Positions 1,679-44,499 of a stretch of 64,000 nucleotides of DNA are shown in pieces. This DNA is from Selaginella moellendorffii (taxonomy: Eukaryota; Plantae; Lycopodiophyta): contig NW_003314338.1 of assembly GCF_000143415.4 (NCBI RefSeq), forward strand, positions 124,001 to 188,000. Direction: 5' to 3'. The first letter of the stretch is position 1. Each line of letters begins with the position of its first letter. A model generated the notes under the pieces. The model was given only the letters and a program-made list of their open reading frames with translations. It ran no database searches and was not told the origin of the DNA. The translations under genes and the position numbers were made by a program.

Positions 1679-2121
1679 GATGGCATGTATTTATTTTAAA
1701 ATGTAACTTATTATGGCATGGGGTTCCATGCCATTGTATTAATATTAAAAGACAATTCTTTGAGAGGATTTGCATTATACTAGAAGTGTTACAGCATGTT
1801 ATTGGAAGTCTATGAAGTTGTTTTATTAATAATGGGAAAGTAAAGATTGAATGGGGACTTGGGCTCCACCTAGACTCGGAGCAACTGAGCCAATATTAAA
1901 AGGATGGAAAGAAATTGGACGACGATGACAAGGAGAAGAGAGAGGTGAAGCAGTGGCAGGGGGAGGAGAAGTGATTGAGTAGACATTTCCTTGTTTAAAA
2001 TAAAATGGCATGTGCCTCAATGCAGTTGAATTTTGTTATATTTATATACTATATAAAGGTTTGGAAACCTTATTTTACAAGTGGGATAATGACAATTCCC
2101 ACTTTAACGAAATAGAGCTTA
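1170..2121. mobile_element. Right end of unidentified element D (copy 1) with ATGGCRTG-n-CAYGCCAT hairpin repeats
   Basis: Hairpin motifs at ~1179, 1255, 1714 and 2005. Terminal sequence TCCCACTTTAACGAAATAGAGCTTA (2097-2121) recurs at 30069-30093. Each copy is followed directly by the middle of an unrelated TE. Confidence 0.5.
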
Positions 2122-3817
2122 AGGTGGCATTTGTCCACCTTAAAGGAAAGTTGAGGAAGGCTCCCATGTTGGCATTACCAGACTTTGGTAAGGACTTCAA
2201 AGTTGAAATAGACACTTCAGACTTTGCGTTGGGTGCAGTTTTGAAGTAAGACAACCATCCAATAGCATTCTTCTTGAAGTTGGACAAGGCTCAGTGAAAG
2301 TGGTTTGCCTACAAGAAGGAAATATTTGCAGTGGTTAAGGTACTCAAGGAGTGGCAACACTACCTTGGGAGACACTTCAAAGTTTACACAGATAATACAG
2401 TTTACATGGATAGTTTACACGGCAACGAAACACTTCTTATCACAGCCCGACCTGAGAGGGAAACAAGGTCAGTGGGCCAATGCTTTGGCTGAGTTTGATT
2501 GCAAGATTCTGTATAAACCTGAGAAGAGCAACATCGTGGTAGATGCTTTAAGTCAAAAAGCAAGCTTGAAGTTGGTGATATCTAACGTGACAGCAACCTT
2601 TTAGGATTATATGTAGACATTATATGAGAATGATGGTTTAACACAAGAAGTGTTGCAAAGGAACCAAGAAGTGCGGGATGCTCACCAGAGAGGTAGGCCA
2701 CCTACAAAAGAGAAGACTAGCTATGTGGAATGCAATGGACTTATCTATTATAAACAAATAAGGGTGTATATTCCACAAGGGGAACTAAGGAAAGTAGCGT
2801 TAGATAGACATCCAAAACTATGTAAAGACATGTCCAACATATCTAATATGTCAGCAAATCGAAACCATAATTAAGGTTAGTGGGGGTTTGTTACAAAGCC
2901 TCCCAATTCTAGATTGTCCATGGAAATGTCTTATGATGGACTTCATCATGAGATTGCCCCCAAGTGAGATGTTTGGTGTGATATTTGTGGTGGTGGACCA
3001 ATTTTCATAGATGGCACATTTCTTACCCACCACAATAGAAGTGGATGTGGAAGGTGTGGCAAAACTATTCTTCAAACAAGTGGTTCGAGTGTGGGGAAGG
3101 CTAGAAGAGATTATGTCAGATTAAGATAATATCTTCACCAGTAGGTTTTGGAAAACTCTACTAGAATAGTATTGCACCAAGTTGAAATTCAACACAGCCT
3201 ATCATCTATAGACAGGTATTGGGTATTAATTAAAGTTTGATGGTAATAACGTTTCTTGACAGACGGACAAACGGAAAGGGTGAATAGACAGCTGGAGGAT
3301 TATTTGCGATGCTATATCTTTGGAGACTAAACCGATTGGGTAAGTCATTTAAGACTTGCAGAAATGTGCTATAACAACTCATCACATTTGGGTATTGTGG
3401 TGAGTCCATAGGAAGTCATCAATGGGCGAGCTATCGAAGGTCTAGTGGAACTCAGTGTGGCTAAGTATCATGGAAGAGTTACTTGTAGTGGAGGCGTTCA
3501 TGGTAGAAAGACTCAATATTTGAAATTTAGTGACGAATTCCTTGGAACGGGCTTAACAAAGGCAAACTAAATATGTGAACCAAAAGTGTTGGGATGTAGA
3601 GTTCCAACTTAGGGATACAGTGTGGCTGAACACCAAGAACCTAAGGTTACCAAGTGGGATCAACTGGTAGTTGAGCTAAAGGTAAAATACAGAAAGGAAC
3701 TGATCTTGAGTCCCTTAATCAAGTTCGTGAGGCCTTATGAGATTAAGGGTCAAATTAGTAAGATGGCTTACCATCTCTAACTTCCTAGGGAGATAGGGAA
3801 GATGCACCCTATGTTCC
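2122..3817 (+). pseudogene. Decayed Ty3/gypsy chromovirus pol (element E): RT-RNase H connection, RNase H, integrase core and GPY/F region
   Basis: Translations include LKGKLRKAPMLALPDFGKDFKVEIDTSDFALGAVL, WANALAEFDCKILYKPEKSNIVVDALS, MDFIMRLP..IFVVVDQFS*MAHF, DGQTERVNRQLEDYLRCY and MHPMF. Many stops and frameshifts. Confidence 0.92.
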
Positions 3818-4974
3818 TGTCGCGAATGTGATTTCGGGTATCGAAAGTTATCTGTCGGCTAGTCCTTTCGGATATTCTTTCCTTATTGCCACGATGGCAG
3901 GAGGTCGGTATTGCTGGACCCGTTATCAGTTTCCCACTTGAGCTAGTTGAGAAACTGGTCAATGACCGTGTACTTAGATCAGATAAACATAAGGTAGGAA
4001 CCCTATGTGTTTCTTGCTGAGCATACTCGGCTTGGTTTGAGAAACTCCTGTCATTGGCTTGCACTTGCTAGTATCAAGAACCCCCGCGATATTGAGATTG
4101 GTCCCTCAACATCGCTAGATGATAGCTTACCGTGTCTGCCAAACACCCTCGCTATCATGCCCTTTGTGTTAGTCTCATTTTGGTCCCAAATGCTATTTAT
4201 GGAAAGTGTCCAGATTTTCTCATTTGGCATGTCTACGGAATGTAGAGATCGTCCTGAACACAATGGTGTTCGTCCCATGTCCAAATTCGCAATCTAGGGA
4301 CATTCCATATTTAGTAAGTGTCGTAAGTGTCGAGCTTGTCCCAGAGACTAACTCCTGATACTAAGGGAGGCTTGGGGTGAAAGCCCAAAGCATGTGTTCC
4401 TCAAGGGGGGGTGGGGGCTATGGGGGGTTCCAAATGTATAGTAGGGATAGTGGGTAGGTCGGGCATGGCCGACCAACCTAAGGCATAGTCTAGCTCCCGC
4501 TTGCGTGCCTGTCTTTGTTCTGCGTCCGGCTTGGGTCTAAGCCCAAGTTCCATTCCATGCTAGCTGGTGGAGTACCCATATCCTCACGTTAGGCCACCAG
4601 TATGCCGAAATAGCGCCAGACTCCATTTGGCTCCGTTTTGCGTACTGGTCCTGGCATTGAGATGCTGGTTGCTCCAGGACTGTTCCAAGTCGCTCCGGGC
4701 TCCTGTCCCTTCGCTCCTTGGGCTATATGCTCGGGAGTTGCTCCGTGGTCCGGTTCCATCACTCTTTGGCGTCACGCTTGGGAGTTTGGCACCATTCCTT
4801 CATTCAGTGGCCCAAGGCCCTGAACCTCGGGTTCCTATGGACACATGGCATGGACACGTGGTATGTGACATGTTGCATCTATCACGTGGCACAAAGAGGG
4901 TTTAGGTTCTGCTTCGTGGTGTTATCCTATGGTAAATCACCATAGGATAAAGGGTCAAAACCACGTGCGCTACA
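3818..4974 (+). repeat. A1 5' LTR
   Basis: TGTCGCGAATG...CACGTGCGCTACA, followed by the PBS; direct repeat of 9959-11111. Confidence 0.95.
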
Positions 4975-7900
4975 TTTGGTATCAGAGGATGAGTCTCAGC
5001 GAGTACTATTCAATGAGATTGGGCAACTAGTCTCGTTGCATATGCAGAGATGAAAACGATGATCCGAGTGGGTACACGTTTTGGTGCAAAGACTTCGCAT
5101 TGGTTCCTTGGGATAGGTTTTGGTTACCTTTTTGTTCCATATTATGTGAGCTTGCTCTTGGGCTCATAGGGTGGACTGAGTTGTTCTGTTACACGAGTTT
5201 GTGCTTGGGCTCATGAGTGAGGCGCATTAGCAACTCGAGGTTACACTTTGAGTTGGCAGGATTAATGTTCGCCTATCGGTGGTTCCATGAGTTGTTCCAT
5301 GTACCATGGGTGCAAATAAACTTTCCCTGGGTTTGTTATGAGTGGCAAATAGGCTAGTCCGTAGCTGTTTAGCGCGGCACTAGTGGATCCTTCCTAGGCA
5401 TGATTATAAGTGGATCAATCAAGACTATAGGGATTAGTCTATTGGTTCAAGTAGTCATAGCCGTGCTCTCTCATAAACTTTTCTTGGATTGAACTGAAAG
5501 CAGTGCGAAAGCAAGCTTGAGGTTTGATCAAAGATGAGACCGAAAAGAGAGTCATCAGGGATGAAGGATCAAATACGTAAATCATTTTCTCTTCTTGGAG
5601 AGATGATCTGCAACGAGGTGTTAACTCATTGCTTGTGTTCACATCATGCAATCAAGAGTCCCTATCTTGATGCATGTTGGAGATGGTGGTGTTACAATGG
5701 TGAGTTGTAGGATGGATAGCTGTGAAGTGCTAAACCATTTTGTCTAAGCTTGCTATTGGAAGACTTGGGTTGCAATGCTCAATTCTTTTTCCGGAGAACC
5801 TTGTTATTGCTCCTTGAGTAGCTTGGTGTTGGATTAGTGTTGAGTTTGGTCGGAAAGAGAGTGGCATGAGCTTGTTCGTGTTGTGAAAAAAAGTTAGTGG
5901 TGTTAGATGTTGTAAATCTCTATTTGATGGGGTGTGGCATTTATGTTGCATTTTGTCGAATCGAGTTGGCACTTGATATTCACATAAACCTTTGCAGTAG
6001 TGACATGGGCATTGCTCATGGTGTTGCTTGATTGATGATCAAGTCATTGTGATTTATATCATATCCATGTGATAATGAGCAATGTGTTTACAAAGTTGCT
6101 TGTGTAAATGATGATCAACCCAAAAGTGGTTGATGGAGAAGCTAGTCTACTTGCACGAAGTAGCATTGTAGTAACTTTGACTGGATTCTCAATGGTGGTC
6201 CATTATCCTAAGCTTAAGTTGGTACCTTGCTTACTTGAGTTTGCCCATAAGGTGTTAGAAAAGGGTTATAGCATTCATTTGCTATGACTTGTCGATTGAT
6301 TCGTTAGCACTTGGAGTAGATTGTTGGATGGAGAAGATGTGTAGTTGGGGCATTGACATCACTAGCACTTGTGTTAGTGAAAGTGGCATTGTTATTTCAA
6401 GTGATGAGGAATTTTCCTTGGACCCTGATTTTCCATGTCATTTTTCTTGTTAGTGTTTTGACTTCACATTGAATCTTGAAGGTGATTGAAGAAGAGTGTT
6501 AATGCAATATGGATATCCAAAGATGTGGTCTTCGTGATCAAGCCTTGGGTGTTCATTTTGCATTTTGCGGATGTCAGTGTTGGATATCGGTTAGATGGGC
6601 AGAGATGTTTGAGGCTTAAGCATACTATGGGTCATGAGAATTTGTGTTGAGGTGAACTTATGTGAAGTTGTTGGTAGGAGGAAGTTGGTTGAGTCTTGAA
6701 AGTTTGCATTCCTAGACTGAGAGTTATTCTTTCTCTAGGATGGAAAATTTTCCACAAATTTTCTCAGGCTTTTCCAATGGCTGATTTGTTGATCATTTTG
6801 CCCGAAAACCATTCTATTTTCGTAAGCCAGTACAAACTAGTGAAGGGGTTGGAGTTGACTTCAGTTAGCTTAGACCCTGGTAGGTAGTTTGTATGATGCA
6901 GCCCGAAAGGGATGCTAACTTTTGGGGCTAAAATAATTGAGTTGGATAGAGTCTAGAGTTGGTGTAGAAAAGTGGCCGTTGCACTTTTCTCAGAAGGGTG
7001 ACCCTTGTGCCCTTCTTTTATAGTGTTTTGCTTGGTGGCAAGTTGCACCTTGCATTTCGCTAAGACTCTATGAGAGTAGTGAGCTCTCACTGATCTTGAC
7101 TTAGTCTTGGTAGCCCTGCACCTTGGCTAAGGATGGGGATGTCCAACTTAGTTGTTTGAGTTGAGGTGTTAGTAACCGTACTATAGCTTTGTTTATAAGG
7201 AGGTTGTGTACCGATATGAGTCCATCTCATGGTTTACACTTTAGTTTCGACTAAGTGTTGATCATGCATAACCAACCTCTTCAAGGCATGCTCAGAGGTA
7301 TTGACTAAATGCATTAATGAACTTATTATGGTTGAGTTGGATTCGAGTGGTCATTTAGTTTGTGCTTGTCTATGAACTTTTATCTCATACCTGGGGTATT
7401 GTGTTCATGTTGGACAAGTATGTGACTCGATGACGTGAGTTAGTGTTCGGGTCTTATGAAGGCAAGTTGAAGGGTGATTGTTAGTTGCTTTGCGACTAGT
7501 GATTACTTGTAGACTTCGTCAAGGACTTTTGACACTTGCTTTGCTCGATGATGATTTAGCAGTGATGGGCTTGCTTTACCAGATGGTGTTGTGGAGGATC
7601 GTGTCATTAGGCTGGCATGGTTTTTTTTTTTCCATGTTGGCATATCAATTCCTTTGTCGATATCATTTGGTTACGTTTGGTCTATAGTGTTGGATTTCAT
7701 TGAGTCTTGGACGTGGTGATTCACTCCTTGAGGAAGTGTTATCTATAACTGAGTATTGCTGAAGGATTGGTCTCGGATATTAACTGAGTATCTTCGACTT
7801 TGGTTAACTTGGTTGCTAGGAAGTTTTGGGTGGTGATTCACTCTTGCTTTCTTCTAGTTTTGTTATGGTGTTGATGGCATTGAAGTGATGCTTTGTCATT

Positions 7901-9958
7901 GACATTGTTGATATTGAGATTTCAGTGAAATGAGATATCTCTCCTTAGGATTGATATTGAGTTTCATTAATCTTAATGAAGATAGTATTAATGATTTTGC
8001 TATGGCTTTGTGTTATTGGCATTCGTACATTTGCTAGTTAGCAACTATGTTGACGTTCAAATGAACTGAGTGGCAAGTTTGAGTTAGTTGTGTTCTAAAC
8101 GAGATTATTTAGTAGGGGTTGAGCTTTGAGCTTTTCCTTGAAAAGTGATTTAGTCGTGGACTATGCTAACTCTACGAGAGGAAGAGTTAATGATCGATAT
8201 TAGAATGTTGAGTCCTTGCTGGATTTGAGTTCGGGATATTGCGATCATTAATGATTCTTTTTGGGCTTGTTATGAAGTGAGTTATGTCTTGCTATAGATG
8301 GATTCATGGAGGATTGTTTGATAATCACTTGTTGAGCATAACTTTGCTATGCTTAGCTTTTGGATTGATGCAGAAATGCTCTTCATTAGCTTTGCATTAT
8401 AAAATTTGGCTTATGGATATGTTGAGGAGGATATTGTGGGTTGCACCATGATTTCTTCTTTAACATTGAAGTTGGTTCATGCAAGACTTGTGATCATTAT
8501 TAGACAAGATATGGCTATAGGCTTCTTCGAGCTTTTGGTTCTTTGAGTTTTATGCTCATTGTTCCATTTGTTAGAAGTTATTGGGGAAGGCATTTTGGCT
8601 CCTAGCTTCGATGTTGAAGTTAGTATTTGCATCTAGCAATCATTGGTGATGATTGACTATCATCTGGGATAATTGATTATCCTTGTCAGAGGTTTTGCTT
8701 GATTATCGTTGATCTAGATTGATTTGCTATTCTTCGGGATGGTGGATTCCTTCTTAGAAGATGATTTTGCATCTCTTTATTGATGGGATGATTGATGATA
8801 TTTCATGATGGTTAGTTGTTCTCTTTGATGGATTGTGGCTTTTTGCATTACTACATGTTCTTTGTGGTTTGCCTTGGATTGGTCTTTTGGGTTTGAGACA
8901 TCAATAGGATGTTGCTGACATTTGCTTAAGCAACTCTGGTTCCTTGGTATTGTTAACCGGGATCTATTCAAATTGGCTAGTGCAATAGTTGGCATGACTG
9001 AGTGTTTGTTGGTCTTACCACATTCATTCTCTTCTATTGATTGTTGCTTGAGTTAGTTTTGATAGATTTGGATGTTATTTCCTTTGGGTGATACATTCGC
9101 GAGCATTTTGCTTGTCAGTCAATGATACTTTGTGTTCTTTGAGTTATCTTTCATAAGTTGTTTAGCATTCTGTCTGCAATCTTTAATAGTTAAACTTTAT
9201 CATTGAGTTTACTTGATGATATACTTGCTATTGAATTTTGTTTGATGGTGAATCCTATGTTTACCACTTATGCTGATCTTGGTGGTTCTTGCACTATAAT
9301 ACTAGTTTATTGGATGATAACTTACTTGGAATACTTTTGTGTTCTAATTTAAGCTTTATTCACTGATAATTCAATCTCTAAGATATCATTGTTTATGACT
9401 TTGATATAGTCCCTCTATATTGATCTTTGCGTTTGGGCCAGTATAGGCAAACTGGCTTCGGCACTTCGTGTGCATGTTGAAATCTCTAGTCGTGGGGTAG
9501 CTACTATCGACTGGTCACATAACCCGCCTCTTTGTCAATGTTCCTTGTTCCGTTGAAAGGGCATGACCATGTAAACAACTCTAACTGCCTGTTTACAGTA
9601 GTCTATCTAAACCTTACCGATAGGTTTGGTTTCTTTGCTTAGGAGGGTTGGGGCCTGTGGCTTCTCTCTCTATGTTCCTGCGGGCAGAGGCATATCACAC
9701 TTTTGTAAGCTGGGTGACTCCCAGAGCAGCAAGGGTGGCTGACTCCGTTGGTCATTTCCTTGTCGGCGACGGCCGGAAGGTGTCTGAGCTGGTAGCGCAT
9801 TTGCGTTGGACAAAGAGGTTGCCTCATAACTCATTTAAGTCGGTGCATTTCTCACATAGTGTGAGTACCGTGAACTTTTTCTGGAGTTGTTTCCTTGGCG
9901 GTATTCTAGACTCGAGTATGCATCGACGAGGACGTCGATCTTCCTTAGGGGGGGAGAG

Positions 9959-11111
9959 TGTCGCGAATGTGACTTCGGGTATCGAAAGTTACCTGTCGGC
10001 TAGTCCTTTCGGATATTCTTTCCTTACTGCCACGATGGCAGGAGGTCGGTATTGCTGGACCCGTTATCAGTTTCCCACTTGAGCTAGTTGAGAAACTGGT
10101 CAATGACCGTGTACTTAGATCGGATAAACATAAGGTAGGAACCCTATGTTTTCTTGCTGAGCATACTTGGCCTGGTTTGAGAACTTTTGTCATGGGCTGG
10201 CACTTGTTAGTATCAAGAACCCCCGGGATATGGAGATGGGTCCCTCAACATCGCTAAAGGATAGCTTCCCGGGTGGCTAAACACCCTCGCTATCATGCCC
10301 TTGGGGTTAGTCTCATTTGGGTCCCAAACGCTATTTAGGGAAAGTGTCCAGATTTTTTCATTTGGCATGTTTACGGAATGTAGAGATCGTCCGGAACACA
10401 ATGGGGTTCGTCCGGGGTCCAAATTGGCAATGTAGGGACATTCCATATTTAGAAAGTTTGGAGTTTGTCCCAGAGACTAACTCCTGATATTAAGGGGGGC
10501 TGGGGGGGAAAGCCCAAATTTTTTTTTCCTCAAGGGGGGGGGGGGGGGGGGGGGCTATAAGGGGTTCCAAATGTATAGTAGGGATAGTGGGTAGGTCGGG
10601 CATGGCCGACAAACCTGAGGCATAGTCTAGCTCCTGCTTGCGTGCCTGTCCTTGTTCTGCGTCCGGCTTGGGTCTAAGCCCAAGTTCCATTCCATGCTAG
10701 CTGGTGGAGTACCTATATCCTCACGTTAGGCCACCAGTATGCCGAAATAGCGCCAGACTCCGTTTGGCTCCGTTTTGCGTACTGGTCCTGGCATTGAGAT
10801 GCTGGTTGCTCCAGGACTGTTCCAAGTCGCTCCGGGCTCCTGTCCCTTCGCTCCTTGGGCTATATGCTCGGGAGTTGCTCCGTGGTCCGGTTCCATCACT
10901 CCTTGGCGTCACGCTTGGGAGTTTGGCACTGTTCCTTCGTTCAGTGGCCCAAGGCCCTGAACCTCGGGTTCCTATGGACACGTGGCATGGACATGTGGTA
11001 TGTGACACATGGCATCTGTCACGTGGCACAAAGAGGGTTTAGGTTCCGCTTCGTGGTGTTATCCTATGGTAAATCACCATAGGATAAAGGGTCAAAACCA
11101 CGTGCGCTACA
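9959..11111 (+). repeat. A1 3' LTR
   Basis: Preceded by the PPT and followed by TSD GTTCC. Confidence 0.95.
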
Positions 11112-11367
11112 GTTCCACATGAACTTACTCAAGCTGTACTTTGAAGATCCACTTCACAAGTATCAAGTAAAACATTTACCTAAGGTTATCTAAGGGGAAA
11201 AGGAATATGAAGTTGAGGCCATCCTCAATGCGCGCAAGAGCAAGCGACAAAGATGTGAGGTGAGGGAGTTCCATATAGAGTGGAAAGGATTTCCATATTG
11301 TGAAGCAACATGGGAACCAAAGGAGAACCTAGTGAACATGCGAGATCTAGTGGAGGAATTTTTGTAA
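11112..11367 (+). pseudogene. Continuation of element E integrase, including chromodomain
   Basis: Removing A1 restores HPMF|HMNLLK, followed by EYEVEAILNARKSKR...FHIEWKGFPYCEATWEPKENL (chromodomain). Confidence 0.9.
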
Positions 11368-15626: not shown

Positions 15627-18600
15627 TGTAAGCGACTAAATTTTCTATTCTACTTTAGTCACTTAACCACACCTTTGACCATTTGAAGGAGTCTTACTCA
15701 CAACCTCCATAAGTCCTATTCCAGACTTGGGGCTTGTTATCCCCAAGAATGGCATCTTTGCCACTCAACCTTTGCACTTGGTCCTAGTGCTCCACATGTC
15801 CGACCCCATGGTCGATACCCCAAGGTACCATCGACATATCAACCTATTATACTAAGGCCATACTCATTCACCTTGGTCACACCGATGGTCCAATACCACT
15901 TGCATCACAGTCCCATCTTTCAAAGAATGGGCCATCCGTCCATGAGTGATCATCCTAGATCCACTCCTTAACATCTTTAGGATGCCCACAAATATGGGGA
16001 ATAACCTTCCCCAATATCTCTTTTTCAATCCCCACCAAGTCCCTTTCTGTCTATAGCCGTGTTCGCCAACACTACCATTGGGACAAGGCCCACAGGCCCA
16101 ACCACTTAGTCTCACTGTCCTTTGGGACTTCCTCACCAAATGACTGTATCCTTGGTCACTACACCAGAGGACCACTCCTCTTCCTTTCCATAGTCTGGGA
16201 CTTTGGGACAACATTTCGAAACACCATAGCCCTAGGCGAACCTTATAGGTACTCTCCCCACCTTCCACCTTTGGATGCTCTAGCCATGGGCTTAGAGCGA
16301 GGCTCCGTTAAACCACAGCAAGTATCCAAGTAGGTAGTGCCACCCACACTTGGACTAGGAGCATCGACCATTCGATCTCCTAGGGGAACTAAAGCTAGCT
16401 TTTAAACACTTCACCGAACTACCCTACTTGTTAGTCCGTATTCACTTTAGGCTTGGACTTCCCAATGGTTATTTCATCACCCAACAACTGGGTATGGCCT
16501 TCTTAGGCCAAACTAGCCCTTTCTGGCCAAACTAGCTCCACTGGGGTCTAACCCCCACGCTCTCCCTACTATATTTGAGCATTTCATTAGGAGTTCCACT
16601 CCTGCTCTTAACTTTTCAAGTTGGAGCTTTTAGTTGAAATGTGTTATGCTCATTTTGCTTTCACTTCGGCCACTACCATGTGGCACACTTTCGGCTCCAC
16701 TTTGGGGCTTAGGGATTTGTGTCTCACAATTCCACCACCTATAGACAAAGTTTGATGTCCTCATCAAACGATAAACTATTTTATAAAGTAATACTAGCAT
16801 GTATTACCCTTTCCATCCTTAGCATCTAGCTAATATTCGTCAATGGTTTGACACTGAAGGTTCACCATGCCTTGTCCATCCTCTAAGGAGCATAGTCTCT
16901 CCAACTTAGAGACTCATTCGACCGTTTGTGGTGGTTCTCCTTTTTTTATTGGTTTAGTTCTCGCTAAGCCTGTTAGAGACACCTTTTCTATCTCAATTCC
17001 ACTACTCATTCTCGAGTAGTCTTAGTTTCCATTGATATAGCTTTTGCACTTTTGCACTTTTGCACCTTGCATTGCACATATTGTGCAAGTTCACTTCCCT
17101 ATCCTAGGAAGTTCTCTACTTGAGGGCACCATCATCCTCTTTTCTTTTTTTTTTTTTTTTGCCACCCTTGGCACTACATTCCAATTATTATCATTTGTGC
17201 TAAGGCTGTCCACGGCCCTATCCTTTGGCTACTTTGCCGCTCCTCACTTGGAGCTTTTACTTCGCCAAATTGGAGCACTTGGGAATCTATTCCTTGGAAG
17301 TCCACTTCCTTTCCCGCAATCCATTAGCATCAAACAGATTTGTATTCTNNNNNNNNNNNNNNNNNNNNNNNNNNNNNNNNNNNNNNNNNNNNNNNNNNNN
17401 NNNNNNNNNNNNNNNNNNNNNNNNNNNNNNNNNNNNNNNNNNNNNNNNTTTCCTTGGATTTACTATGCCATAGCATTGACATAGCTCATAGACCTTAGTT
17501 GTTCTTCCCACTTGGTCACCTCGACCAAGCCACACCTTTATCAATAGTTCAAATCAACACTTTGAACTAGGAATCATATTCCTTAACCCAAACAAAGACT
17601 TTGTTCTTGTTTAGCCACAAGATCACCTAGTGATCTCATAATAGGCCTATCAATAGGAACTAGGTCTTCCAGACCCTTCTAAGTTGTTGACTATGACCCC
17701 AGGGCCATCCCCCACACTTGGCGGTGCGCCCAAGCCAACCCTGCCGGCCAAGGATCCATAACAACTGAGACTTGGGTGTCCCCATCTCATTCACCACGTC
17801 CTTGGTGCCCTTTGCACCAAAGTGTTCAAGTTAAATATGCCGAGATTTCACTCTAAGCAATCTAACCGTGCATCACGACTTTGAGGCATCCCTCGCTTGG
17901 CGGTGTGCCCAAACCAGTCTCCTCACTGAGAGTCCATGACCACCGAAATATGAGTGTCCTCATATCCCAATCCATCACCACCCCCTAGTGATTTAGGACT
18001 TGAACCCAAGCACTAGAGGGTCGGGACTTGAACCCAACCTCCGTATATGCATCTACGGACGGCATCACCTTAGATGCCTAGCGTGACTCCCCACGCCGGT
18101 GCACCAATTTATACTTAAAGCGCACTACAGATCACAGCTTAGGAACCTAGTTCCTCCACCCTGCCAAGTCCTCTCACTTGACAAGTTCGTGATCATGCAT
18201 GGACTCCTCCATGCTTGGCCCCATGGCCCACCCTTTTTGAAGTAATCACCTTCAACTAGGGTATTTGTTAACCCAACTTGCCAATCTCGCTTGGCAAGTC
18301 CTCCGACAACTGTAACATGGGTTCCGCATAAGCGTGAAAGTCCTTGACCATTGACTTTCATTCAAAGCCCTCTCTTTGAACACTCAAGAATTACTTCCCT
18401 CACCTTGATACCTTTGCCTCATGGCAAGCTTCAAGACCACGCTTCTGCTGCGCCATTCTGATTTCGTGCGTTCCATGAACCATTTACACTTGGCCTTTGT
18501 AGGTACTAAGCTACCTAGAATCATCTTTGGGAACCTTGAAGGAACTCTGTCCCTTAACTTGCTAAGACCTCCTTTTTCACAAGCTTTATAGTTGCCATAT

Positions 18601-19560: not shown

Positions 19561-19631
19561 TGTGAGACACAAAATCCCTAGGCCCCAAAGTGGAGCCGAA
19601 AGGGTGCTATGTGGTAGTGGCCGAAGCGAAA

Positions 19632-20030
19632 GTGGAGTCCGAGGTGGAGTCTGAGATGGAGTTTGAGATGGAGTCTGAAGTAGAGTCTGAGGTGGAGTCC
19701 AAGATGGACCGAGATGGAGTCCGAGATGGACCCGAGATGGAGTCTGAGATGGAGTCTAAGATGGACCCGAGATGGAGTCCGAGATGGACCGAGATGGAGT
19801 TCAAGATGGACCCGAGATGGAATCCGAGATGGAGTCCGAGATGGAACCGAGGTGGAGTCTGTGATGGACCCGAGATGGAGTCCGAAGTCGAGACCTAGAC
19901 AGAGACCGAGACCGGGACCGAGACCGAGACCGAGGCTGACGCCAAGACCAAGCCCAAGTCCAAGTCCGAGTTCAAGTCCGAGTCCGAATCCGAGTTTGAG
20001 TCCGAGTCCGAGTTCGAGTCCGAGTTCAGG
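19632..20030 (+). repeat. B-LTR tandem array: 11-12-mers GAGATGGAGTCC/GAGATGGACCC, then 6-mers GAGACC/GAGTCC
   Basis: Visible directly. Other copies at ~25500-25855, 26845-27140, 34875-35371, 38535-39115, 44500-44612 and 49895-50482. Confidence 0.95.
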
Positions 20031-22751
20031 TCTGAGAGGGTGAAAGCCCAAAGCGTTCGTCTCCCAGACCCTGGGGGGTTTGGTGAGCTCCAAAAGTATA
20101 GTGAGGGGGAGCACTACAGTGGGGCCAGTTTGGCCAGGAAAGGCCAGTTTGGCCCAGGAAGGCCAGACCCAGTGTTGGGTGATGAACTGACCACTGGGAA
20201 GTCCAAGACTAGAGTGAATACGGACTGACAAGCGGGGTAGCTTGGTGAAGTGTTCAAGAGCTGGCTCTAGTTCCCACGGGAGATCGACTGGCAGATGCTC
20301 CCAGTCCAAGTGTGGGTGGCACTACCTACTTGAATACCAGGCGTGGCTCAACGAAACCTCGCTCTAAGCCCATAGCTAGAGCACCTAAAGGCGGAAGGTG
20401 GGGAGAGTACCCACGGGGCTCACGTAGGCCCACGGTGTTCCGAAATGTTGTCCCGAAGTCCCAAATGGGTGTAAGGAGGAGGAGCAGTCCTCTAGTGTAG
20501 TGACTACGGATACGGTCACATGGTGAGGAAGTCCCAGAGGACAATGGGACTTAGTGGCCGGGCCTGCGGGCCTTGATCTAGTGGCAGTGTTGGTGAACAT
20601 GGCCATGGATGAAAAAGGGACTTGGCAGGAACTGATAAAGGGATGTTGGGGAAGGCTATTCCCCATGTTTATAGACATCCTAAGGATGCTAAGGAGTGGA
20701 TCTGGGATGACCACTCGTGGACGGACGGCCCAGTCTTGGAGAGACGGGATTGTGATGCAAGTGGTATTGGACCACCAGTGCGGCAAAGGTGTATGGGCAT
20801 GGCCTTAGCGTAACAAGCCAATATGTCAGTGGTACCTTTGGGTGTCGGTCTTGGGACTGGACACATGGAGCATTTGGACCAAGTGAAAGAGTTGAGTGGC
20901 ATGGATGCCATTCTCGAGACTAGCAAGTCCCAAGTCCTGAATTGGACTTAAGGAGGTTGTGAATGAGACTCCTCTAAGTGGTCAGAGGTGTGGTTAAGTG
21001 ACTAAAGTAGAATGGAAAATTTAGTCGCTTACAATTTGGTATCAGAGCTATTCCTTAGTCCGACTCTTATTGGTGGCCAAGTATATCACCACTTGTATTG
21101 GAATTGGAAGGTCCTAGATATGGACCTATCCTCGAGGAGTAGCATGTTGAGAGGACATGGCTTTCCGTTCAAGTTCATGTGTGAACTTGTGCGCGATGTG
21201 GTGGATGGAAAAGGGCCAGTAAGGGAACGACTTCGGGATCTTGGGAATGGTACAAGGTTTCCCTCAAAGAGTTGAGGATGTGATCCGGATGAGGGTTTGA
21301 CTCATCAAACTAGCTAGGTAGTTGTGGTAAACAACTATAGTTGGGATCACGGGAAAGATGCAGACTCCAAAACAATAAAGGAGTCACAAGATAATCCGCA
21401 CATAGTTGAGGCTGATGCTCATGAATTTGAGATCGGAATTGATGACCATGAGAGGTCAAGTACGGATGAGGGCAAGAGCCCTGGAAATGGTAGCTGGGGC
21501 TACCTTTTATAAATGCTATAACGAACCCAAGGAGTTGGGGGTGTGCTCAAAGGATGAGTTGGCATTCTCATCATAGGGACAAATAGTCTTAAGGGGCAAA
21601 GGCAACCCACAGAGAACGGGAAATAATGAAGTGTTGGAGTAACACTTGCAAGATGGTCCTTATGAGTAGGACATGAATACATGAAGTTGTATTCGAGTGA
21701 GTTGGCACCTCAAAAATAGAACCTTATGGGTCGTTGGTTTAGCGAAGTCTAAAAATGCTGGATGACTCAAGTAGGGTCAGGGAATGGTCCTAAGGGATTG
21801 GTTGAAGCATTTAGACTGAGGTGTATAGTGCCCCATGAGGTATGGGGAGGATCATAAAATCCAAGTATGAGAACAGAAGATATCTCATTGATGGCAAAAT
21901 GTGCCATACTAAAGTTGTGGGAAAGATGTTCCCAAAAGAAAGCAACTTTGGCCCAGAGTTGGGGACAAACATTATGGTGTGGTGCTAACGGATAGTTAGC
22001 AGGAGGCACAACTATATTGGTCTTGGCAAAGACCTAAACGCTAATAAGTAGTGTCATAAGGATAGGCCCGTGGGGCCAATGGTGTGGAGACACCAAATGT
22101 GCCAAGGTGTGATACCTTGAGGTTATGTTGATGGGTTCATAAGAACCCCTTGCCAAGGGAATCCCAACGGAAATGGGAATGGCATAGCCTAAGCTGGAAG
22201 GCATGTGGTAGAGTGTGGTGACCAAAACAATGATGGAGGTGTGGAAGCACTAAGCAATGAGTTGTAGGATTTCACAACTATGAGGCAACTAAGCAAAAGG
22301 TGCAAGATAATTGGTTAAACTGGTAGAAGGTAGCTACCCAAGACTTCTTAATGGCATAAGGAAGTTAGATATACCCTTACGAGGGATAAATTGCTTATGT
22401 TGTGATATAGTAAGTCAATGTCATAAAAGGGAATGCTCATTGTCAAACAGGCTATCATTTGGGACACCAAAACACTCTAGGACACCAGGAGGTGGTGTTT
22501 TATGTCGCGAGGGCAATAGATAAGGCCCAAGGGACTAAGTCCCTAGTGAATGATGGATAGAAGGTGCTATCCAAATGTCCAAGGTTGTGGAGACGGGAGA
22601 AGACTGTCTACCCAAATTGAACAAAGCCAAAAATGGAATTTTGGCAAGGCTAGTGATAGGCATATAAAGGCCCATAAGCACCAACGTTAATCTCGGTGTG
22701 TGGGATTATAAGGTGAGCACACCTAGATTGAGGAACCACTCCCTAGGCTAT

Positions 22752-22913
22752 TGTAGCGCACCTTATCTCTCTCCCCTTAAGCCAACTGGAAAAGGGGCAA
22801 TTGCTTGATGAGAGAGCCCTTAGTGGCTATTTTATCCCCATTTATCCCCCAAGGTTCCAAGGATCCACGGTGACAGTATATCCAAATCTCATCCCATGAT
22901 CACATGCGATACA
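22752..22913. mobile_element. 162-bp mini solo LTR (TRIM-like) inserted in B1
   Basis: Absent at the homologous site of B2 (~47180) and B3 (~18870). Termini TGTAGCGCA...TGCGATACA form an 8/9 inverted repeat. TSD GCTAT/ACTAT. Confidence 0.85.
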
Positions 22914-23725
22914 ACTATCGAGTAGGTTCATCTCTAAGAATACTTGCTAAGGCATGATAGAAAGTGCAAAGCTATCCTCCTAGTCTAGAGGAGAATGACT
23001 AAAAGAAAGGTGTGAAGCCATAAGCAAGTAGTAAGGGGATAGAACCAAACCATAGAAATCAAAGGGCATAACCAAGGGTGGTTATGCCAGTTGGGAGTGG
23101 AGAATCAAGTGGGGGCTTGAGGGTGTTATTGCTAGCAACCATGATGCCATGGAGAGTCTGAAATATGGAATTGTCCATATTAGACTATATGGCAATTAGA
23201 AAGCTTGCGAAAAGGAAAGCCTTAGCAAAATAAGGGACAGAGTTCCTTCAAGGTTCCCAAAGACGATTCTAGGTAGCTCAGTACCTAGAAAGGCCAAGTG
23301 TAAATAGTTCATGTAACGCGCGAAATCAGAGTGGCACAGCAGAAGTGTGGTCCTGAAGCTTGCCATGAGGCAAGGCTATCAAGGTTAGGGAAGTAATTCC
23401 CGAGTGTTCAAAGAGAGGGCTTTGAACGAAAGTTGATGGTCAAGGACTTTCACGCTTGTGCAGGAACCATGTTACAATGGTCGGAGGACTTGCCAAGCGA
23501 GATTGGCAAGTCAGGGGAACGAATACCCTAGTTGCAGGAGCCAACTTCAAAGGGGTGGCCAATGGGGCTGAGCATGGAGGAGTCCATGCAGGATCACAAC
23601 ATGCCAAGTGAAAGGACTTGGTAGTGCGGAGGAACTAGGTTCCTAAGCTATGATCTGTAGCACACTTTAAGTACATGTTGGTGCACCAGTGTGGGGAGTC
23701 ACACCAGGCATCCAGTGTAATGCCA

Positions 23726-23802
23726 TCCGTAGATGCATATACGGAGGTTGGGTTCGAGTCCCAACCCTCTAGTGCTTGGGTTCGAGTCCCAAATCACTAG
23801 GG
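23726..23802 (+). other. Structured module in B interior: hairpin plus two tRNA T-arm/B-box-like hairpins
   Basis: TCCGTA-GATGCATA-TACGGA; GGTTGGG-TTCGAGT-CCCAACC; CTAGTG-C-TTGGG-TTCGAGT-CCCAA-AT-CACTAG. Present in four copies. Confidence 0.6.
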
Positions 23803-25855
23803 CGTGGTGATGGTTTGGAATATGAGGAAACTCATATTTCGGTGGTCATGGACTCTCAATGAGGAGATTGGCTTGGACACACCGCCAAACGGGGGATGCC
23901 CCGGAGTCATGATGCAGGGTTAGATTGCTTAGAGTGAAACCTCGGCATATTTAACTTGAACACTTTGGTGCAAAGGGCACCAAGGACGTGGTGAATGAGA
24001 TGGGGACACCCAAGTCTTAGTTGCTATGGATCCTTGGCTGGAAGGGCTGGCTTGGGCGCACCGCCAAGTGTGGGGGATGCTCCCGGGGTCATAGTCAACA
24101 ACTTAGAAAGGTCTGGAAGACCTAGTTTCTATTGGTAGACCTATTAAGGGGTCAAGATGAGATCACTAAGTGATCTTGTGGCTAAACAAGGACAAAGTCT
24201 TTGTTTGGGTTAAGGAATATGATTCCTAGTTCAAAGTGTTGATTTGAACTATTGATAAAAGTGTGGCTTGGTCAAGGTGACCAAGTGGGAAGAACACCTA
24301 AGGGAAATGAGCTATGTCAATGCTATGGTATAGTAAGTCCAAGGAAAGTAGTCTCTATAAGAGATCCAAGGGAGGGTTTCAAAAGGTTGAGCTGTGATAG
24401 AGCCCATGACAGAAAATGTTAAAGAGACGTACTAGGGGTGAACACCCTCTGGAGTTAGCAAAGCAAGGTGTTTGCTATGGAACCCAAAGGAAACCTCAAA
24501 AATGGAGGTAGCAATCCTATGTTGCTGGGTGCAACAATCAAGGATAGGAGCAAAATACTAGTGGCTAAGAAAAGAGCCATGGGAATCATGGGAAAGAGTC
24601 CAAATGGCAAAGTTAGGCCAAGAACACTAATGTGTTAGGTGCTAATGGATTGTGGGAAAGGCAATGTTTCCCCAAGGATGGATTCCCAACCACTCCAATT
24701 TGGCGAAAGTGGATGCTCCAAAGGGGGGAGCGGTAAGGTAGCCAAATAATAGGGCCGTGGGCAGCCTTAGCACCAATTATGATAATTGGAACTTGGTGCC
24801 AAAGATGGCACGATATCGAAGAGAGGGTGATGGTACCCTCAAGTAAAGAACTTCCTAGGATAGGGAAGTGGAGTTGCACCATGTGCAACATAGGGTGTCG
24901 GAGACACTTAGGAAATTGACTCTGAGAAGTCAAAATTAAAAGTTCCAAAGTTCAAAGGTGATGTCGATGGAATCTAAGACTACTCGAGAATGAGTAGTGG
25001 AATTGAGATAGAGACGGTGTCTCAAACCGGTTTAGTGAGAACTAAACCAATAAAAGGAGAGAACCACCTCAAGTGGTCGAATGAGCCTCTAAGTTGGAGA
25101 GGCTATGCTCCTTAGAGAATGGACAAGGCATGGTGAGCCTTCGGTGTCAAACCATAGACAAACATTGGCTGGGTGCTAAGGATAGAAATAGTAATACATG
25201 TGGGTGTTACTTTCTAAAAGGGTTTACCGTTCGATGAGGACATTGAACTTCGTCTATGGGTGGTGGAGTTGTGAGACACAAAATCCCTAGGCCCCAAAGT
25301 GGAGCCGGAAGGGTGCCATGTGGTAGTGGTTGAAGCGAAAGCCAAACGAGCGTAACACATTTGGACTAAAAGCTTCAACTTGAAAGGTCGAGAGCGGGAG
25401 TGGAACTCCAACAAAGTGCTCGAAGAACAAGCATGAAGCGAGCAATAAGCGAGGCTCCAAAAAGGGACCCAAAAGGACCAACACATGACACGTGGAAGTG
25501 TCTGAGATGGAGTCTGAGATGGACCCGAGTTGGAGTCCGAGATGGACCGAGACGGACTCCGAGATGGAGTCCGAGGTGGAGTCCGAGATGGAGTCTGAGG
25601 TGGAGTCCGAGGTGGAGTCCGAGGTGGAGTCCGAGGTGGAGTCCGAGATGGAGTCCGAGGTGGAGTCTAAGGTGGAGTCCAAGATGGAGTCCAAAATGGA
25701 CCGAGATGGAGTCTGAGATGGACCCGAGATGGAGTCCGAGATAGACCAAGATGGAGTCCGAGATGGACCGAGATGGAGTCCGAGATGGACCCGAGATGGT
25801 GTCTGAGATGGACCGAGATGGAGTCCGAGATGGACCCGAGATGGAGTACGAGATG

Positions 25856-27369
25856 GTGATTAATTTTTCCATTCTACTTTAGTCACTTAACCACACCTCC
25901 GACCACTTGGAGGAGTCTCATTCACAACCCCCATAAGTCCTATTCCAGACTTGGGCATGCTAGCCCCAAAAATGGCATCCCCGCCACTCAACCTTTGCAC
26001 TTGGCCCAAGTGCTCCACATGTCTGATCCCATGACTGACACCCAAACGTACCACTAACATATCGACCCATTATGCTAAGGCCATGCCCATTCACCTTTGT
26101 TGCACTGGTGTTCTAATACCACTTGCATCATAGTCCTGCCTCTCCAAGACTAGCATCCATCCATGAGTGGTCATCCCAGATCCACTCCTTAGCATCCTTA
26201 GGATGCCCATAGACATGGGGAATAACCTTCCCCAATATCCCTTTGTTAGTTCCTACCAAGTCCCTTTTTTGTCCATGGCCATGTTCACCAACACTGCCAC
26301 TAGATCAAGGCCCGCAAGCCCGGCCACTAAGTCCCATTGTCCTTTGTGACTTCCTCACCACATGGCTGTATCCTTAGTCACCACACTAGAGGATTGCTCC
26401 TCCTCCTTTCCCTAGTTTGGGACTTCGGGACAACTATTCGGAACACTATGGCCTTATGCAAGCCCCGTGGGTACTCTCCCCACCTTCCACCTTTAGGTGC
26501 TCTAGCTATGGGCTTGAAGCGAGGTTCCATTGAGCCATGCAAGGTATCCAATTAGGTATTGCCACCCACACTTGGACTGTGAGCATCGGCCATTTGATCT
26601 CCCAAAGGAACTAGAGCCGACTCTTGAACACTTCACCAAGCTACCCCGCTTGTTGGTCCGTATTCACTCTAGTCTTGGACTTCCCAGTGGATATCCCATC
26701 ACCCAACACTTGGGCACAGCCTTCCTAGGTCAAACTAGCCTTTCCTAGCCAAACTGGCTCCACTAGAGTCCTCCCCCTACTATACTTTTGGAGCTCACCA
26801 AACCCCCTAGGGTCTGGGAGATGAACGCTTTGGGCTTTCACCCTCTCAGACTCGGACTCTATCTTGGGTCCATCTCAGTCCATCTCAAACTCCATCTCGG
26901 ACTCCATCTCGGGTCCATCTCGGGTCCTTCTCGGACTCCATCTCGGGTCCTTCTCGGACTCTATCTTGGATTCCATCTCGGGTCCATCTCGGACTCTATC
27001 TGGGGTCCATCTCGGGTCCATCTCGGACTCTATCTGGGGTCCATCTCGGGTCCATCTTGGACTCCGGACTCCATCTTCGGTCCATCTCAGACTCCATTTT
27101 GGACTCCATCTCGGGTCCATTTCAGACTCTATCTCGGACTCCTTCATGTGTCATATGTTGGTCCTCTTGTGTCTCTTTTCTAGAGACTCACTTATTGCTC
27201 ACTTCATACTTGTTTCTCGAGCACTTCATTGGGAGTTCCACTCCCGCTCTCGACCTTTCAAGTTAGAGCTTTTAGTCCAAACGTGTTATGCTCATTTGGC
27301 TTTCGCTGCGGCCACTACCAGTAGCACCCTTTTGGCTCCACTTTGGGGATTAGGGATTTGTGTCTCACA
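25856..27369 (-). mobile_element. Family B LTR in inverted orientation abutting B1
   Basis: GTGATTAATTTTTCCATTCTAC...GGGATTTGTGTCTCACA; first few LTR bases missing; no PBS, PPT or TSD found. Confidence 0.88.
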
Positions 27370-28500: not shown

Positions 28501-30093
28501 TAGATTTCAAGGTGAACAATCCGAATCTAAATCAGAGGAGGCGTGATGGCATGTGGCCTTACGCCATTCCTAGGTGAGATGATACAAATAACAAGTATAA
28601 ATTCTTAGTTGTTCTAGCAAATCTTACTTAAAGTTCAAGGTGAACAAGCCGAATATGAATTCATCGGATTGTTATAACAAATTGCGAGGTGATGGCATGA
28701 GGCGATACGCCATTTGAGAGTGGTAGCCATTCCTATATGAGGTGAGTGAAATATTTATTAGAAATACCTCATTCAATTGTGCACTTCTAAGTCTTGGTCC
28801 ACTCAGTATTGTTTACATGTTTCTATTTTAATTCTTTCTCTAAAATGTTATTTAGCATGTGGCTTCATGCCATTGCTCTCCACAATCATGCATTGAATTT
28901 TTCTATCCTTGCATAATACTTCTCCATATATATAGCATGTGCGCACATGTGATATGGTTCATTAGGCCTGATATAGTGTGTGAGGTAAAACAAAGATGAT
29001 GTGACATATGCATTTACCAATCACACATGCATAAATCTAATAATATGGCGTGTGGCCCATATTAATGGCACATAAACCCATATTGTGGGCTTACATGCTT
29101 TATGTACCATCATTCCCTTGCAGCGTGTGTGTTGGTTTCCTTTTATAACACAACGAACTCCATATTTTAGGGTGAAGAGCGTTCTCATGGCAAGCACAAA
29201 ATCTGTAAGTGAGGCAGAAAAGGAGACGGAGAAGGAGATAGGTGAAGATGTAGAATATATAAGTCTTCCAAACTCCCCAGGTGATCATTTTTCTGAACAA
29301 ACGGCAATATTAACAACTATCGAGAACGCCCCAGTAACGTCAGAGACAACAATCCAAAGCAAAACAACTGACCCGGAGAAGGATGATAGTACCGCTGAGA
29401 GTACCAAAAAGGAGGTGTCCACTAGCGCTTAGGCTTATAATGGCGTGTGCCCTCATGCCATTTACTTGATCACCAAATACCTTTTTCCCTTTGCACTAGT
29501 ATATCTTAATACCGGTTTGAGAAATAGAATGGCATGTGCCCTCAAGCCTTTTACTAAATCACCTTTGAAAGAAATGCAAGCCTCTATGTCGTAAAAAAAA
29601 GGTAGTAGAGAAATTCCTTAATAATATAAATGTTATTTAGTTTCATGAAAATACACTAAGGGTCAAATGAGTTAAATGACTTCTCCAGACTAGCAATGCC
29701 TCTTGCTACACCTTCACAATTAGATTCGTTAGAAAAAGATAACATTGAATAATATATAAATGTTCTCACCATTAAGTTATATGTCTGGCTAATAGGAATG
29801 ACGTTCATCTTGGAAAGCTCACCACACGCTCAATGAACAAACAAATAGTGTGTGCATGCATGCCATTGCTCTTCTTTAGCTTCAGATTCGGCTTGTTCAC
29901 CTTGACAATGAGATTTATTATACAACCAGATGGACTCAGTCTGGACACAAAGTCACCGCGCTAGTCACCATGCCCCAGATATGTCTAGCCCCTGGACAAA
30001 AAACATATAATTTCACGTCATTTTCAAATACTTGAAAATTTGTACCTAGTCCCATTTTACTGAATAAATCCCACTTTAATGAAATAGAGCTTA
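28501..30093. mobile_element. Unidentified element D copy 2, inserted in C gag
   Basis: TCAAGGTGAACAAKCCGAAT at 28506 and 28635 and inverted at ~29881-29905. About seven ATGGCRTG..CAYGCCAT hairpins. Same 25-bp terminus as copy 1. Exon-like segment at 29172-29432. Confidence 0.55.
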
Positions 30094-44300: not shown

Positions 44301-44499
44301 AATGACAACTTAGGATTTCCTTCCTTAGTGCCCTTCCGGTCTAAGTGCACATGTGATGACCAGTTTCTCAACTAGCTTAGGTGGAAACTGATAACGGGTC
44401 CAGCAATACCGACCTCCTGCCATCGTGGCAGTAAGGTAAGAGTGTCCGTAAGGACTAGCCGACAGGTAACTTTCGATACCCGAAGTCACATGCGCGACA
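35372..44499 (-). mobile_element. Full-length family A element A2 inserted in the array of the B2 3' LTR
   Basis: LTRs at 35372-36524 and 43335-44499. PPT at 36525-36537. PBS at 43322-43332. Perfect TSD ATCTC at 35367-35371 and 44500-44504. Confidence 0.96.
38305..40119 (+). mobile_element. Family B solo LTR inside A2
   Basis: TGTGAGACAC...GTCGCTTACA with perfect TSD CTCTC (38300-38304 and 40120-40124). The flanks rejoin to match A1 at ~8170-8200. Confidence 0.95.

What the first reader, a model, noticed from the sequence alone, without database searches (positions are those of the whole stretch)
3216..3722. Intron-like inserts inside a chromovirus integrase (candidate splice-gated retrotransposon)
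Seen: the integrase of E has two short inserts that element C's integrase lacks. Insert 1 (3216-3262, 47 nt) reads ACAG|GTATTG...TAATAAC GTTTCTTGACAG|AC. Removing it exactly restores the conserved T-D-G-Q-T-E-R-V-N motif that carries the catalytic Glu. Insert 2 (3682-3722, 41 nt) reads AAG|GTAAAA...CTTAATCAA|G and restores LS(Q)R-FV(G)PY, if the final AA is a decayed AG. Both follow an exon-end AG, begin with GT, break the frame and are close to host intron size (~50 nt). Established: introns are normally purged by reverse transcription of spliced RNA. Inference: the family may package unspliced RNA and make integrase only from spliced mRNA. Alternatively the sequence was domesticated or moved as DNA. 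Insert 1 is also flanked by a GACAG repeat, so it could show intron birth from a TSD-forming insertion.
Basis: partly seen in the sequence, partly recalled or inferred. Interest (0 to 1): 0.85.

Follow-up and report, generated by a model that had tools for sequence, protein, structure and literature searches.

The report
Host-type introns inside retrotransposon integrase
Two short inserts that split the integrase gene of this dead plant retrotransposon are kept, mostly with intron-type ends, in many related genomic copies, so the family likely needs splicing to make its integrase while likely copying itself from unspliced RNA; no RNA could be tested.

Summary
Both inserts are real and are family traits, not scars of one copy. 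Insert 1 (3216-3262) splits the integrase core: 119 of 123 intact homologues are continuous across it. Insert 2 (3682-3722) splits the SH3 (GPY/F) domain. In genomic DNA contigs of the same organism, dozens of diverged copies carry both inserts. Relatives have a branch-point motif in insert 1. Their insert 2 is about 51-52 nt, and it ends in AG in 42-77% of depth (three runs, one sample). No exact intron-less joint was listed. Host introns nearby have a median of 54 nt (13 hand-picked). The element is Galadriel-like. Its layout closely fits SM1-Galahad of Selaginella moellendorffii, published in 2012 as one long and two short ORFs, with no mention of introns. That identity and the host species are inferred, not sequence-tested. 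Best reading: two spliceosomal introns gate integrase production while unspliced RNA is reverse-transcribed (about 60%). Main rival: a non-autonomous family given integrase in trans. Splicing itself, this copy's LTRs and young TSD-flanked copies were not observed. New variant of a known kind; interest 0.66.

The parts
2127..2393 (+). RNase H of element E (decayed); E's gag-PR-RT part is not in the window
   Evidence: Pfam PF17919 E 1.4e-19, PF17917 E 4.3e-17; no homologue hits upstream of about 2020
2416..2806 (+). end of RNase H and linker towards the integrase zinc finger, frameshifted and partly deleted
   Evidence: tblastn of homologues; loose ends at 2804/2807 show relatives carry extra sequence here
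2807..3215 (+). integrase core, part before insert 1 (first two catalytic Asp positions; four in-frame stops in this copy)
   Evidence: Pfam rve E 8.7e-4, below curated cut-off; 15427 phmmer hits at E<=0.001; translation
3216..3262 (+). insert 1: likely spliceosomal intron, 47 nt, phase 1, splits the Asp codon of the T-D-G-Q-T-E motif, five codons before the catalytic Glu
   Evidence: sequence; 119 of 123 homologues collinear; kept in relatives with a branch motif
3211..3215 (+). GACAG, repeated at the end of insert 1 (3258-3262)
   Evidence: sequence
3263..3681 (+). predicted exon 2 (419 nt): catalytic Glu helix to first half of the SH3 (GPY/F) domain; +1 frameshift near 3473-3475 in this copy
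   Evidence: blastp to homologues; indel table
3682..3722 (+). insert 2: likely spliceosomal intron, 41 nt here, about 51-52 nt in relatives, phase 2, stop codon right after the donor
   Evidence: sequence; variant row 3722 and loose ends
3723..3817 (+). predicted exon 3, first part: second half of SH3 (GPY/F) domain
   Evidence: Pfam PF24626 SH3_Tf2-1 E 6.3e-7, profile positions 24-55 of 64
3818..11111 (+). nested non-coding LTR element (7294 bp; LTRs 1160/1153 bp, 94% identical; tRNA-Met-type PBS; TSD GTTCC at 3813-3817 and 11112-11116), inserted later into E
11117..11367 (+). predicted exon 3, rest: chromodomain and stop
   Evidence: Pfam Chromo E 2.2e-14; contiguous with 3817 in 19 of 26 homologues

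Best explanation
Element E is a dead copy of a multicopy Galadriel-like chromovirus family whose integrase gene is split by two short inserts that are likely host-type spliceosomal introns, so a complete integrase would come only from doubly spliced mRNA while unspliced RNA is likely what gets reverse-transcribed. Shown: the inserts, their exact fit to the protein, their presence in many diverged genomic copies, and GT, AG and branch-type motifs in relatives. [quoted passage not shown] The family is probably SM1-Galahad of Selaginella moellendorffii (inferred from layout, about 75%).
For: Collinearity with intact integrases. Family-wide retention in DNA: 3759, 3534 and 1810 contigs of X3, X5, X6 and 23 of X1 were laid on 2750-3817, most under 95% identical. 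Six of the 32 listed pieces bridge insert 1 with 31 or more letters on each side, and all six keep it (0-3 gap letters). At 3244 and 3246 most relatives differ from this copy (25-54 contigs per run, 79-99% of depth), which gives them a CTAAC branch motif 13 nt before the acceptor. For insert 2, loose-end strings show the GT donor and AG-ending acceptors, and site 3722 reads G in 14, 22 and 14 contigs. Five loose-end strings carry a YTRAY motif at the homologous place, in four spellings; two deviate. Insert lengths vary by non-multiples of three among copies (1-nt gap at 3236 in a depth-33.7 contig; about 51 versus 52 nt for insert 2). Sizes fit host introns: 49-70 nt, median 54, 13 hand-picked. 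No exact intron-less joint among 15 of 28 joints shown or the single joint. The ATG at 3763 is not conserved (G in 64-77% of depth), so exon 3 lacks a conserved start of its own there. Novikov et al. 2012 (PMC3350952, section 2.1) describe SM1-Galahad, hundreds of copies, as a 1295-aa ORF ending in core integrase, then ORFs of 316 bp and 309 bp (113 aa, chromodomain). E gives 322 nt (with a +1 frameshift), 306 nt and 114 codons. E pairs with a Galadriel-like Prunus protein in a 30-sequence tree, support 0.93.
Against: No spliced RNA was seen. The A at 3722 still holds 23-58% of depth, so many copies lack the second AG. The GT and AG of insert 1 in relatives are not directly displayed (157 variant rows hidden). 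No listed contig bridges insert 2 end to end. X3, X5 and X6 are one sample, and X1/X2 may be the source of the window. Contigs drop rare variants, so intron-less copies may exist unseen. One X6 contig is 24 letters shorter across 3158-3296, which is neither intron retention nor exact loss. E's own LTRs and TSD are not in the window, so retrotransposition of intron-bearing copies is inferred from family size. A YTRAY motif lies 13-19 nt from the end in only 5 of 13 host introns, so it is a weak marker. An intron-less spliced RNA should, once reverse-transcribed, take over, and nothing here shows what prevents that. No SM1-Galahad sequence was in hand.
Confidence: 0.6

Rival explanations
1. The family is non-autonomous for integration. 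The inserts killed its integrase in the founder (or are spliced too rarely to matter), and copies spread using integrase from an intron-less sister family such as SM2-Galahad.
For: SM2-Galahad has one intact 1577-aa ORF, hundreds of copies and 99.7% identical LTRs, while no intact SM1-Galahad copy was found (PMC3350952). Non-coding LTR elements are abundant in this window. Many copies lack the second AG.
Against: It leaves two independent host-sized GT-AG inserts with branch motifs to chance (about 3e-5 for the ends alone). The last 13 letters of three loose-end strings in insert 1 are identical while the first 17 differ at 6-8 places (read by eye; the variable part rests on few contigs). Exons after the inserts are as close to homologues (up to 56% identity) as the exon before (up to 47%).
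Confidence: 0.2
2. The introns are real, but the family multiplied as DNA (Ginger-like cut-and-paste, cargo of a DNA transposon, or segmental duplication), so reverse transcription never had the chance to remove them.
For: Ginger1 transposases are Gypsy-integrase-like and carry 1-4 GT-AG introns (PMC2836005, passages). GingerRoot exists in Selaginella lepidophylla (PMC6839031). E's RNase H abuts the end of another repeat at about 2121. No LTR of E is in the window.
Against: E has a retrotransposon RNase H in front of the integrase and a chromodomain behind it. GingerRoot has no chromodomain, and Ginger elements are told from LTR elements by the lack of RNase H and RT. The matching published family has LTRs, PBS, PPT, gag, PR and RT.
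Confidence: 0.08
3. The inserts are not spliced at all. They are old filler or insertion scars inherited from one founder, bypassed by recoding or not bypassed.
For: The 5-nt direct repeat around insert 1 resembles a TSD or repair microhomology. No RNA evidence for splicing exists here.
Against: Splice-type ends, host-like size, length drift by non-multiples of three and stop codons inside. No stable fold that would suggest a recoding signal (z +1.0, -0.5, +0.8, -0.9).
Confidence: 0.07
4. Splicing is real and intron-less daughter copies do arise, but they are rare or recent and were dropped by the contigs; there is no special packaging rule, only inefficient splicing.
For: Contigs show presence, not absence; 13 joints and thousands of pieces were hidden.
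Against: An intron-less subfamily of any size should give a multi-contig joint, and the best-supported joints shown had one contig per run.
Confidence: 0.05

Closest known systems
SM1-Galahad, Selaginella moellendorffii chromovirus (Novikov et al. 2012, PMC3350952; seen: section 2.1 whole, other passages, supplement searched with no hit)
   Same: Galadriel-related; group I chromodomain with substitutions in the chromo-box (E reads FHIEWKG); polyprotein ORF ends in the integrase core and is followed by two short ORFs whose sizes fit E's exons 2 and 3; high copy number; no intact copy.
   Different: The paper reads the layout as three ORFs; 'intron' and 'splic' occur 0 times in its main text. 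Identity with E is by description only; its LTR features could not be checked on E.
Ogre (Ty3/gypsy, Tat) intron (seen: passages in PMC6317226 and PMC12786077; the primary paper PMC2596294 is not held)
   Same: An intron is removed from a subset of transcripts to allow translation of the whole polyprotein, and genomic copies keep it. This is the closest working model.
   Different: One intron of about 274 bp between Gag-PR and RT, at a domain boundary. Here two inserts of about 50 nt lie inside integrase domains and would gate integrase only.
BARE1 and EVD/Ty1-copia spliced Gag RNAs (PMC3735527 abstract; PMC5580714 passages)
   Same: Spliced and unspliced RNA pools with different fates; unspliced RNA is the replicated one.
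   Different: There splicing truncates the product to Gag and unspliced RNA encodes Pol. Here the logic would be reversed: splicing completes the enzyme.
Foamy virus spliced pol mRNA (PMC7828637, passages)
   Same: An enzyme made only from spliced RNA while full-length RNA is packaged.
   Different: The splice removes gag and makes a subgenomic RNA; there are no small introns inside the enzyme's coding sequence.
Ginger1 and GingerRoot DNA transposons (PMC2836005, PMC6839031; passages)
   Same: Gypsy-type integrase; Ginger1 has GT-AG introns in its coding sequence.
   Different: They have TIRs and no RNase H or RT and move as DNA, so intron retention needs no explanation. E has RNase H and a chromodomain.

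Membership tests
Ty3/gypsy chromovirus | RH-INT order with C-terminal chromodomain | tested here: met
   Pfam RT_RNaseH, rve (weak), SH3_Tf2-1 and Chromo in order
Ty3/gypsy chromovirus | paired LTRs, PBS, PPT, TSD, gag-PR-RT | tested here: inconclusive
   not present for E in the window; both ends are cut by other repeats; no genome held
Galadriel/Galahad clade | phylogenetic placement on RH-INT | tested here: inconclusive
   sister to P0020 (Prunus dulcis) at 0.93 in a FastTree of E plus 29 of 151 homologues that matched all four pieces in order; the label Galadriel rests on a motif recalled from memory, and no named reference was in the tree
SM1-Galahad | ORF1 ends in core integrase, followed by ORFs of about 316 and 309 bp | tested here: met
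   322 nt and 306 nt; 114 codons versus 113 aa
SM1-Galahad | over 80% nucleotide identity to the consensus | not testable with these tools
   no sequence in the paper's readable supplement; the REXdb table and FASTA were too large to read
SM1-Galahad | LTRs over 1 kb with poly-G, tRNA-Met PBS | tested here: inconclusive
   E's LTR is absent; the nested non-coding element has such LTRs, and its link to E is untested
U2 spliceosomal intron | GT donor and AG acceptor | tested here: met
   insert 1 in this copy; insert 2 in 42-77% of relatives' depth, not in this copy
U2 spliceosomal intron | removal restores collinearity with homologues | tested here: met
   119 of 123 for insert 1; commonest gap, 8 of 25, for insert 2
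U2 spliceosomal intron | branch motif and host-like length | tested here: met
   a weak marker, as only 5 of 13 host introns show YTRAY at 13-19 nt
U2 spliceosomal intron | excised from RNA | not testable with these tools
   no RNA holder listed
Ginger/GingerRoot DNA transposon | integrase alone, no RNase H or RT, TIRs | tested here: not met
   RNase H directly upstream and chromodomain downstream
Introner-like intron-generating element | repeated element with TIRs and TSD at many unrelated sites | tested here: inconclusive
   no second copy of either insert in the window, no hairpin ends; genome not searchable

The most novel reading that the evidence does not exclude
A high-copy LTR retrotransposon gained two spliceosomal introns inside its integrase, at least one through a duplication-forming insertion, and has kept them through hundreds of reverse-transcription cycles. 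Host splicing then acts as a licence for integration: unspliced RNA builds particles and cDNA, only doubly spliced RNA supplies integrase, and single splicing could give a chromodomain-less form. With an intron-less sister family in the same genome, this would be a dated natural experiment on intron gain and on how retroelements choose which RNA to package.
Probability: 0.4. Interest if true: 0.85.

Novelty: new variant of a known kind. Interest (0 to 1): 0.66.

Why it matters
Loss of introns during retrotransposition is the classic proof of an RNA intermediate, and a 2025 review lists only Ogre and EVADE as notable intron-bearing plant LTR elements (PMC12786077, passages). Those introns sit at the gag-pol boundary. 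Two host-sized introns inside the integrase catalytic core and SH3 domain of a high-copy Gypsy family would be a new way of rationing one enzyme, would force a strict packaging choice for unspliced RNA, and would re-read a published three-ORF element as one spliced gene. It is directly testable with public RNA-seq and a long-read assembly. It would also warn annotators that apparently dead families in short-intron genomes may be splice-competent.

Tried and rejected
No whole genome is held, so copies, LTRs and TSDs could not be surveyed. The look-up of sequencing runs listed no RNA holder; this is no evidence on expression. Three word-based protein searches found no close relative: one Theobroma hit at 53%, none, none. 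The full HMMER search gave at most 48% identity among the best 150, so no family protein, spliced or not, was seen. A 20-nt junction pattern hit three metagenome loci that share only the pattern; a 23-nt version found none in prokaryote genomes and the 20-nt one none in viral contigs; a protein scan of viral contigs found none. Exact look-up of a host PPR protein failed, so the species is not confirmed. RNA folding of the inserts and flanks gave nothing above shuffles. An automatic host-intron caller gave 21 introns, median 53 nt, but several calls were wrong; I used 13 hand-picked ones. An IQ-TREE run timed out and FastTree was used. Literature searches for a description of these introns found none; the library lacks most subscription papers, and Repbase and two REXdb supplements could not be seen. 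Rejected: single-copy decay (family-wide); domestication (many stops, multicopy); Ginger membership (RNase H present); my first idea that ORF3 starts at a conserved ATG at 3763 (not conserved). Earlier scan notes held nothing on this sequence or genome.

Full report
Setting. The window is eukaryotic. Its first 50 kb are a nest of LTR elements; from about 51 kb there are compact genes with very short introns. Thirteen hand-picked host introns are 49-70 nt, median 54. I take the host to be Selaginella, probably S. moellendorffii, from this anatomy and the literature match below; an exact protein look-up did not confirm it, and no whole genome is held.

The observation. Both inserts are at the stated coordinates. 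Element E reads RNase H (2127-2393), integrase core (2807-3215), insert 1, a middle piece (3263-3681), insert 2, an SH3/GPY-F half (3723-3817), then a nested 7294-bp LTR element with TSD GTTCC, and a chromodomain ending at 11367. This copy is dead: it has many stops and frameshifts. Against 151 homologous proteins, the pieces on either side of insert 1 are separated by exactly one residue in 119 of the 123 proteins that match both. For insert 2 one residue is the commonest gap (8 of 25), with more scatter. Reading into either insert meets a stop at once or within five codons. Element C lacks the inserts but is only 33% identical in protein.

Is it one copy or a family? Public DNA runs of the same organism were laid at 80% likeness. 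On 2750-3817, 23, 3759, 3534 and 1810 contigs were laid (X1, X3, X5, X6; at most two samples), most under 95% identical. Summed depth is not a copy number, but up to 95 contigs per run share a single variant, and in X1 a family contig spanning insert 1 has depth 33.7 against 2.04 for the contig identical to the window. Six of the 32 listed pieces bridge insert 1 with at least 31 letters on each side, and all keep it; 9149 pieces were not shown. At 3244 and 3246 most relatives differ from this copy, and the shared state is a CTAAC branch motif 13 nt from the acceptor. One contig has a 1-nt gap inside the insert. The GT and AG of insert 1 have no variant row among those shown, but 157 rows were hidden, so their conservation is not directly shown. 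One X6 contig is 24 letters short across the region, which I cannot explain.

Insert 2 was examined alone (196, 240, 153 and 1 contigs). Site 3722 reads G in 199.8 of 473.9, 12556 of 19360 and 7145 of 9326 depth (14, 22, 14 contigs), so the AG acceptor is common or the majority, though A remains frequent. Loose ends show the GT donor, three AG-ending acceptor strings, and about 10 extra letters, giving 51-52 nt. Five strings carry YTRAY at the homologous place, in four spellings, and two deviate. No piece bridges the whole insert, because the alignment breaks at the length difference; contigs enter it from both sides. No exact intron-less joint appears among 15 of 28 joints shown or in the single joint. 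Contigs drop rare variants, so this is weak evidence of absence.

Which family? E pairs with a Prunus protein carrying Galadriel-type motifs (label recalled) at support 0.93 in a tree of 30 sequences; 122 of 151 homologues were left out for not matching all four pieces in order. Novikov et al. 2012 (PMC3350952; section 2.1 read whole) describe SM1-Galahad of S. moellendorffii: Galadriel-related, hundreds of copies, no intact copy, a 1295-aa ORF ending in core integrase, then ORFs of 316 bp and 309 bp, the last given as 113 aa with a group I chromodomain. E's pieces give 322 nt (including a +1 frameshift), 306 nt and 114 codons, and a spliced total of about 1545 aa, near the 1577 aa of the single-ORF sister SM2-Galahad. 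The paper never mentions introns or splicing. No sequence was available, so identity is inferred at about 75%; the REXdb supplements that I could not open may bear on it. If right, even the family consensus has the breaks, which argues against decay of single copies.

How it most likely works. Shown: two inserts with splice-type ends and host-like size, at frame-restoring positions, kept across a large family. Inferred: they are spliced; unspliced RNA would give Gag-PR-RT-RH and an integrase stump without the catalytic Glu; doubly spliced RNA would give the full enzyme; and the replicated RNA is unspliced. Ogre is the closest precedent for splicing that completes the polyprotein (passages in PMC6317226). 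BARE offers a way to keep introns, since its capped, translated RNA cannot be copied into cDNA (PMC3735527 abstract). EVD (PMC5580714) and foamy virus Pol (PMC7828637) are further analogues. None of these has small introns inside the integrase. Ginger1 transposases do (PMC2836005) but move as DNA and lack RNase H, which E has.

What is missing. No RNA run was listed, so splicing is untested. E's LTRs are not in the window, so movement by reverse transcription rests on domain content and on the match to a published LTR family. The strongest rival is a non-autonomous family supplied with integrase by an intron-less sister (0.2); it leaves the splice signals to chance, about 3e-5 for the ends alone by a crude count, but only selection tests on full copies can exclude it. 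The GACAG repeat around insert 1 is a weak hint of origin by duplication; insert 2 has no such repeat and neither insert recurs in the window.

Verdict. Observation confirmed and strengthened; interpretation partly supported. Nine literature searches found no description of introns in this family or inside a Gypsy retrotransposon integrase, within a library that lacks most subscription papers. New variant of a known kind; interest 0.66, rising to about 0.85 if junction reads and young intron-bearing copies are found.

Noticed in passing
window 3818-11111 and 35372-44499 (minus strand, itself interrupted at 38305-40119): Two copies, about 90% identical, of a 7.3-kb non-coding LTR element (longest stop-free frame 111 aa, no homologue hits) with 1.16-kb LTRs, a poly-G tract and a tRNA-Met PBS. 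These LTR features match the description of SM1-Galahad, so it may be that family's non-autonomous partner.
   Followed up: partly
window 2094-2121 and 30066-30093: The same 28-nt end of an unidentified repeat (rich in TGGCATGTG-like motifs, with short-intron-like gene pieces at 1-1400) abuts E's RNase H at one site and a LINE-like fragment (by eye) at the other; possibly a DNA transposon end.
   Followed up: partly
window 19561-25856, 44500-50714 and several solo LTRs (e.g. 33876-35371, 38305-40119): A second abundant non-coding LTR family whose LTRs contain a variable tandem array of GGACTCCATCTC-like units; these arrays produce the long spurious ORFs.
   Followed up: no
window 31494-33876: Element C, a decayed chromovirus of another family with gag, RNase H, integrase and chromodomain but apparently no PR-RT, and no inserts in its integrase.
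   Followed up: partly
run X6, record 25 (window 3158-3296): One diverged contig has 115 letters where the window has 139, across insert 1; not an exact intron loss (which would give 92).
   Followed up: no
window 51.4-61.8 kb: Host genes named by eye from translations (recalled, not searched): an ARF-GAP, an unknown membrane protein, a single-exon PPR gene, VPS26 and a WRKY factor, all with 45-70-nt introns.
   Followed up: no
window 17349-17448: An assembly gap of 100 N.
   Followed up: no
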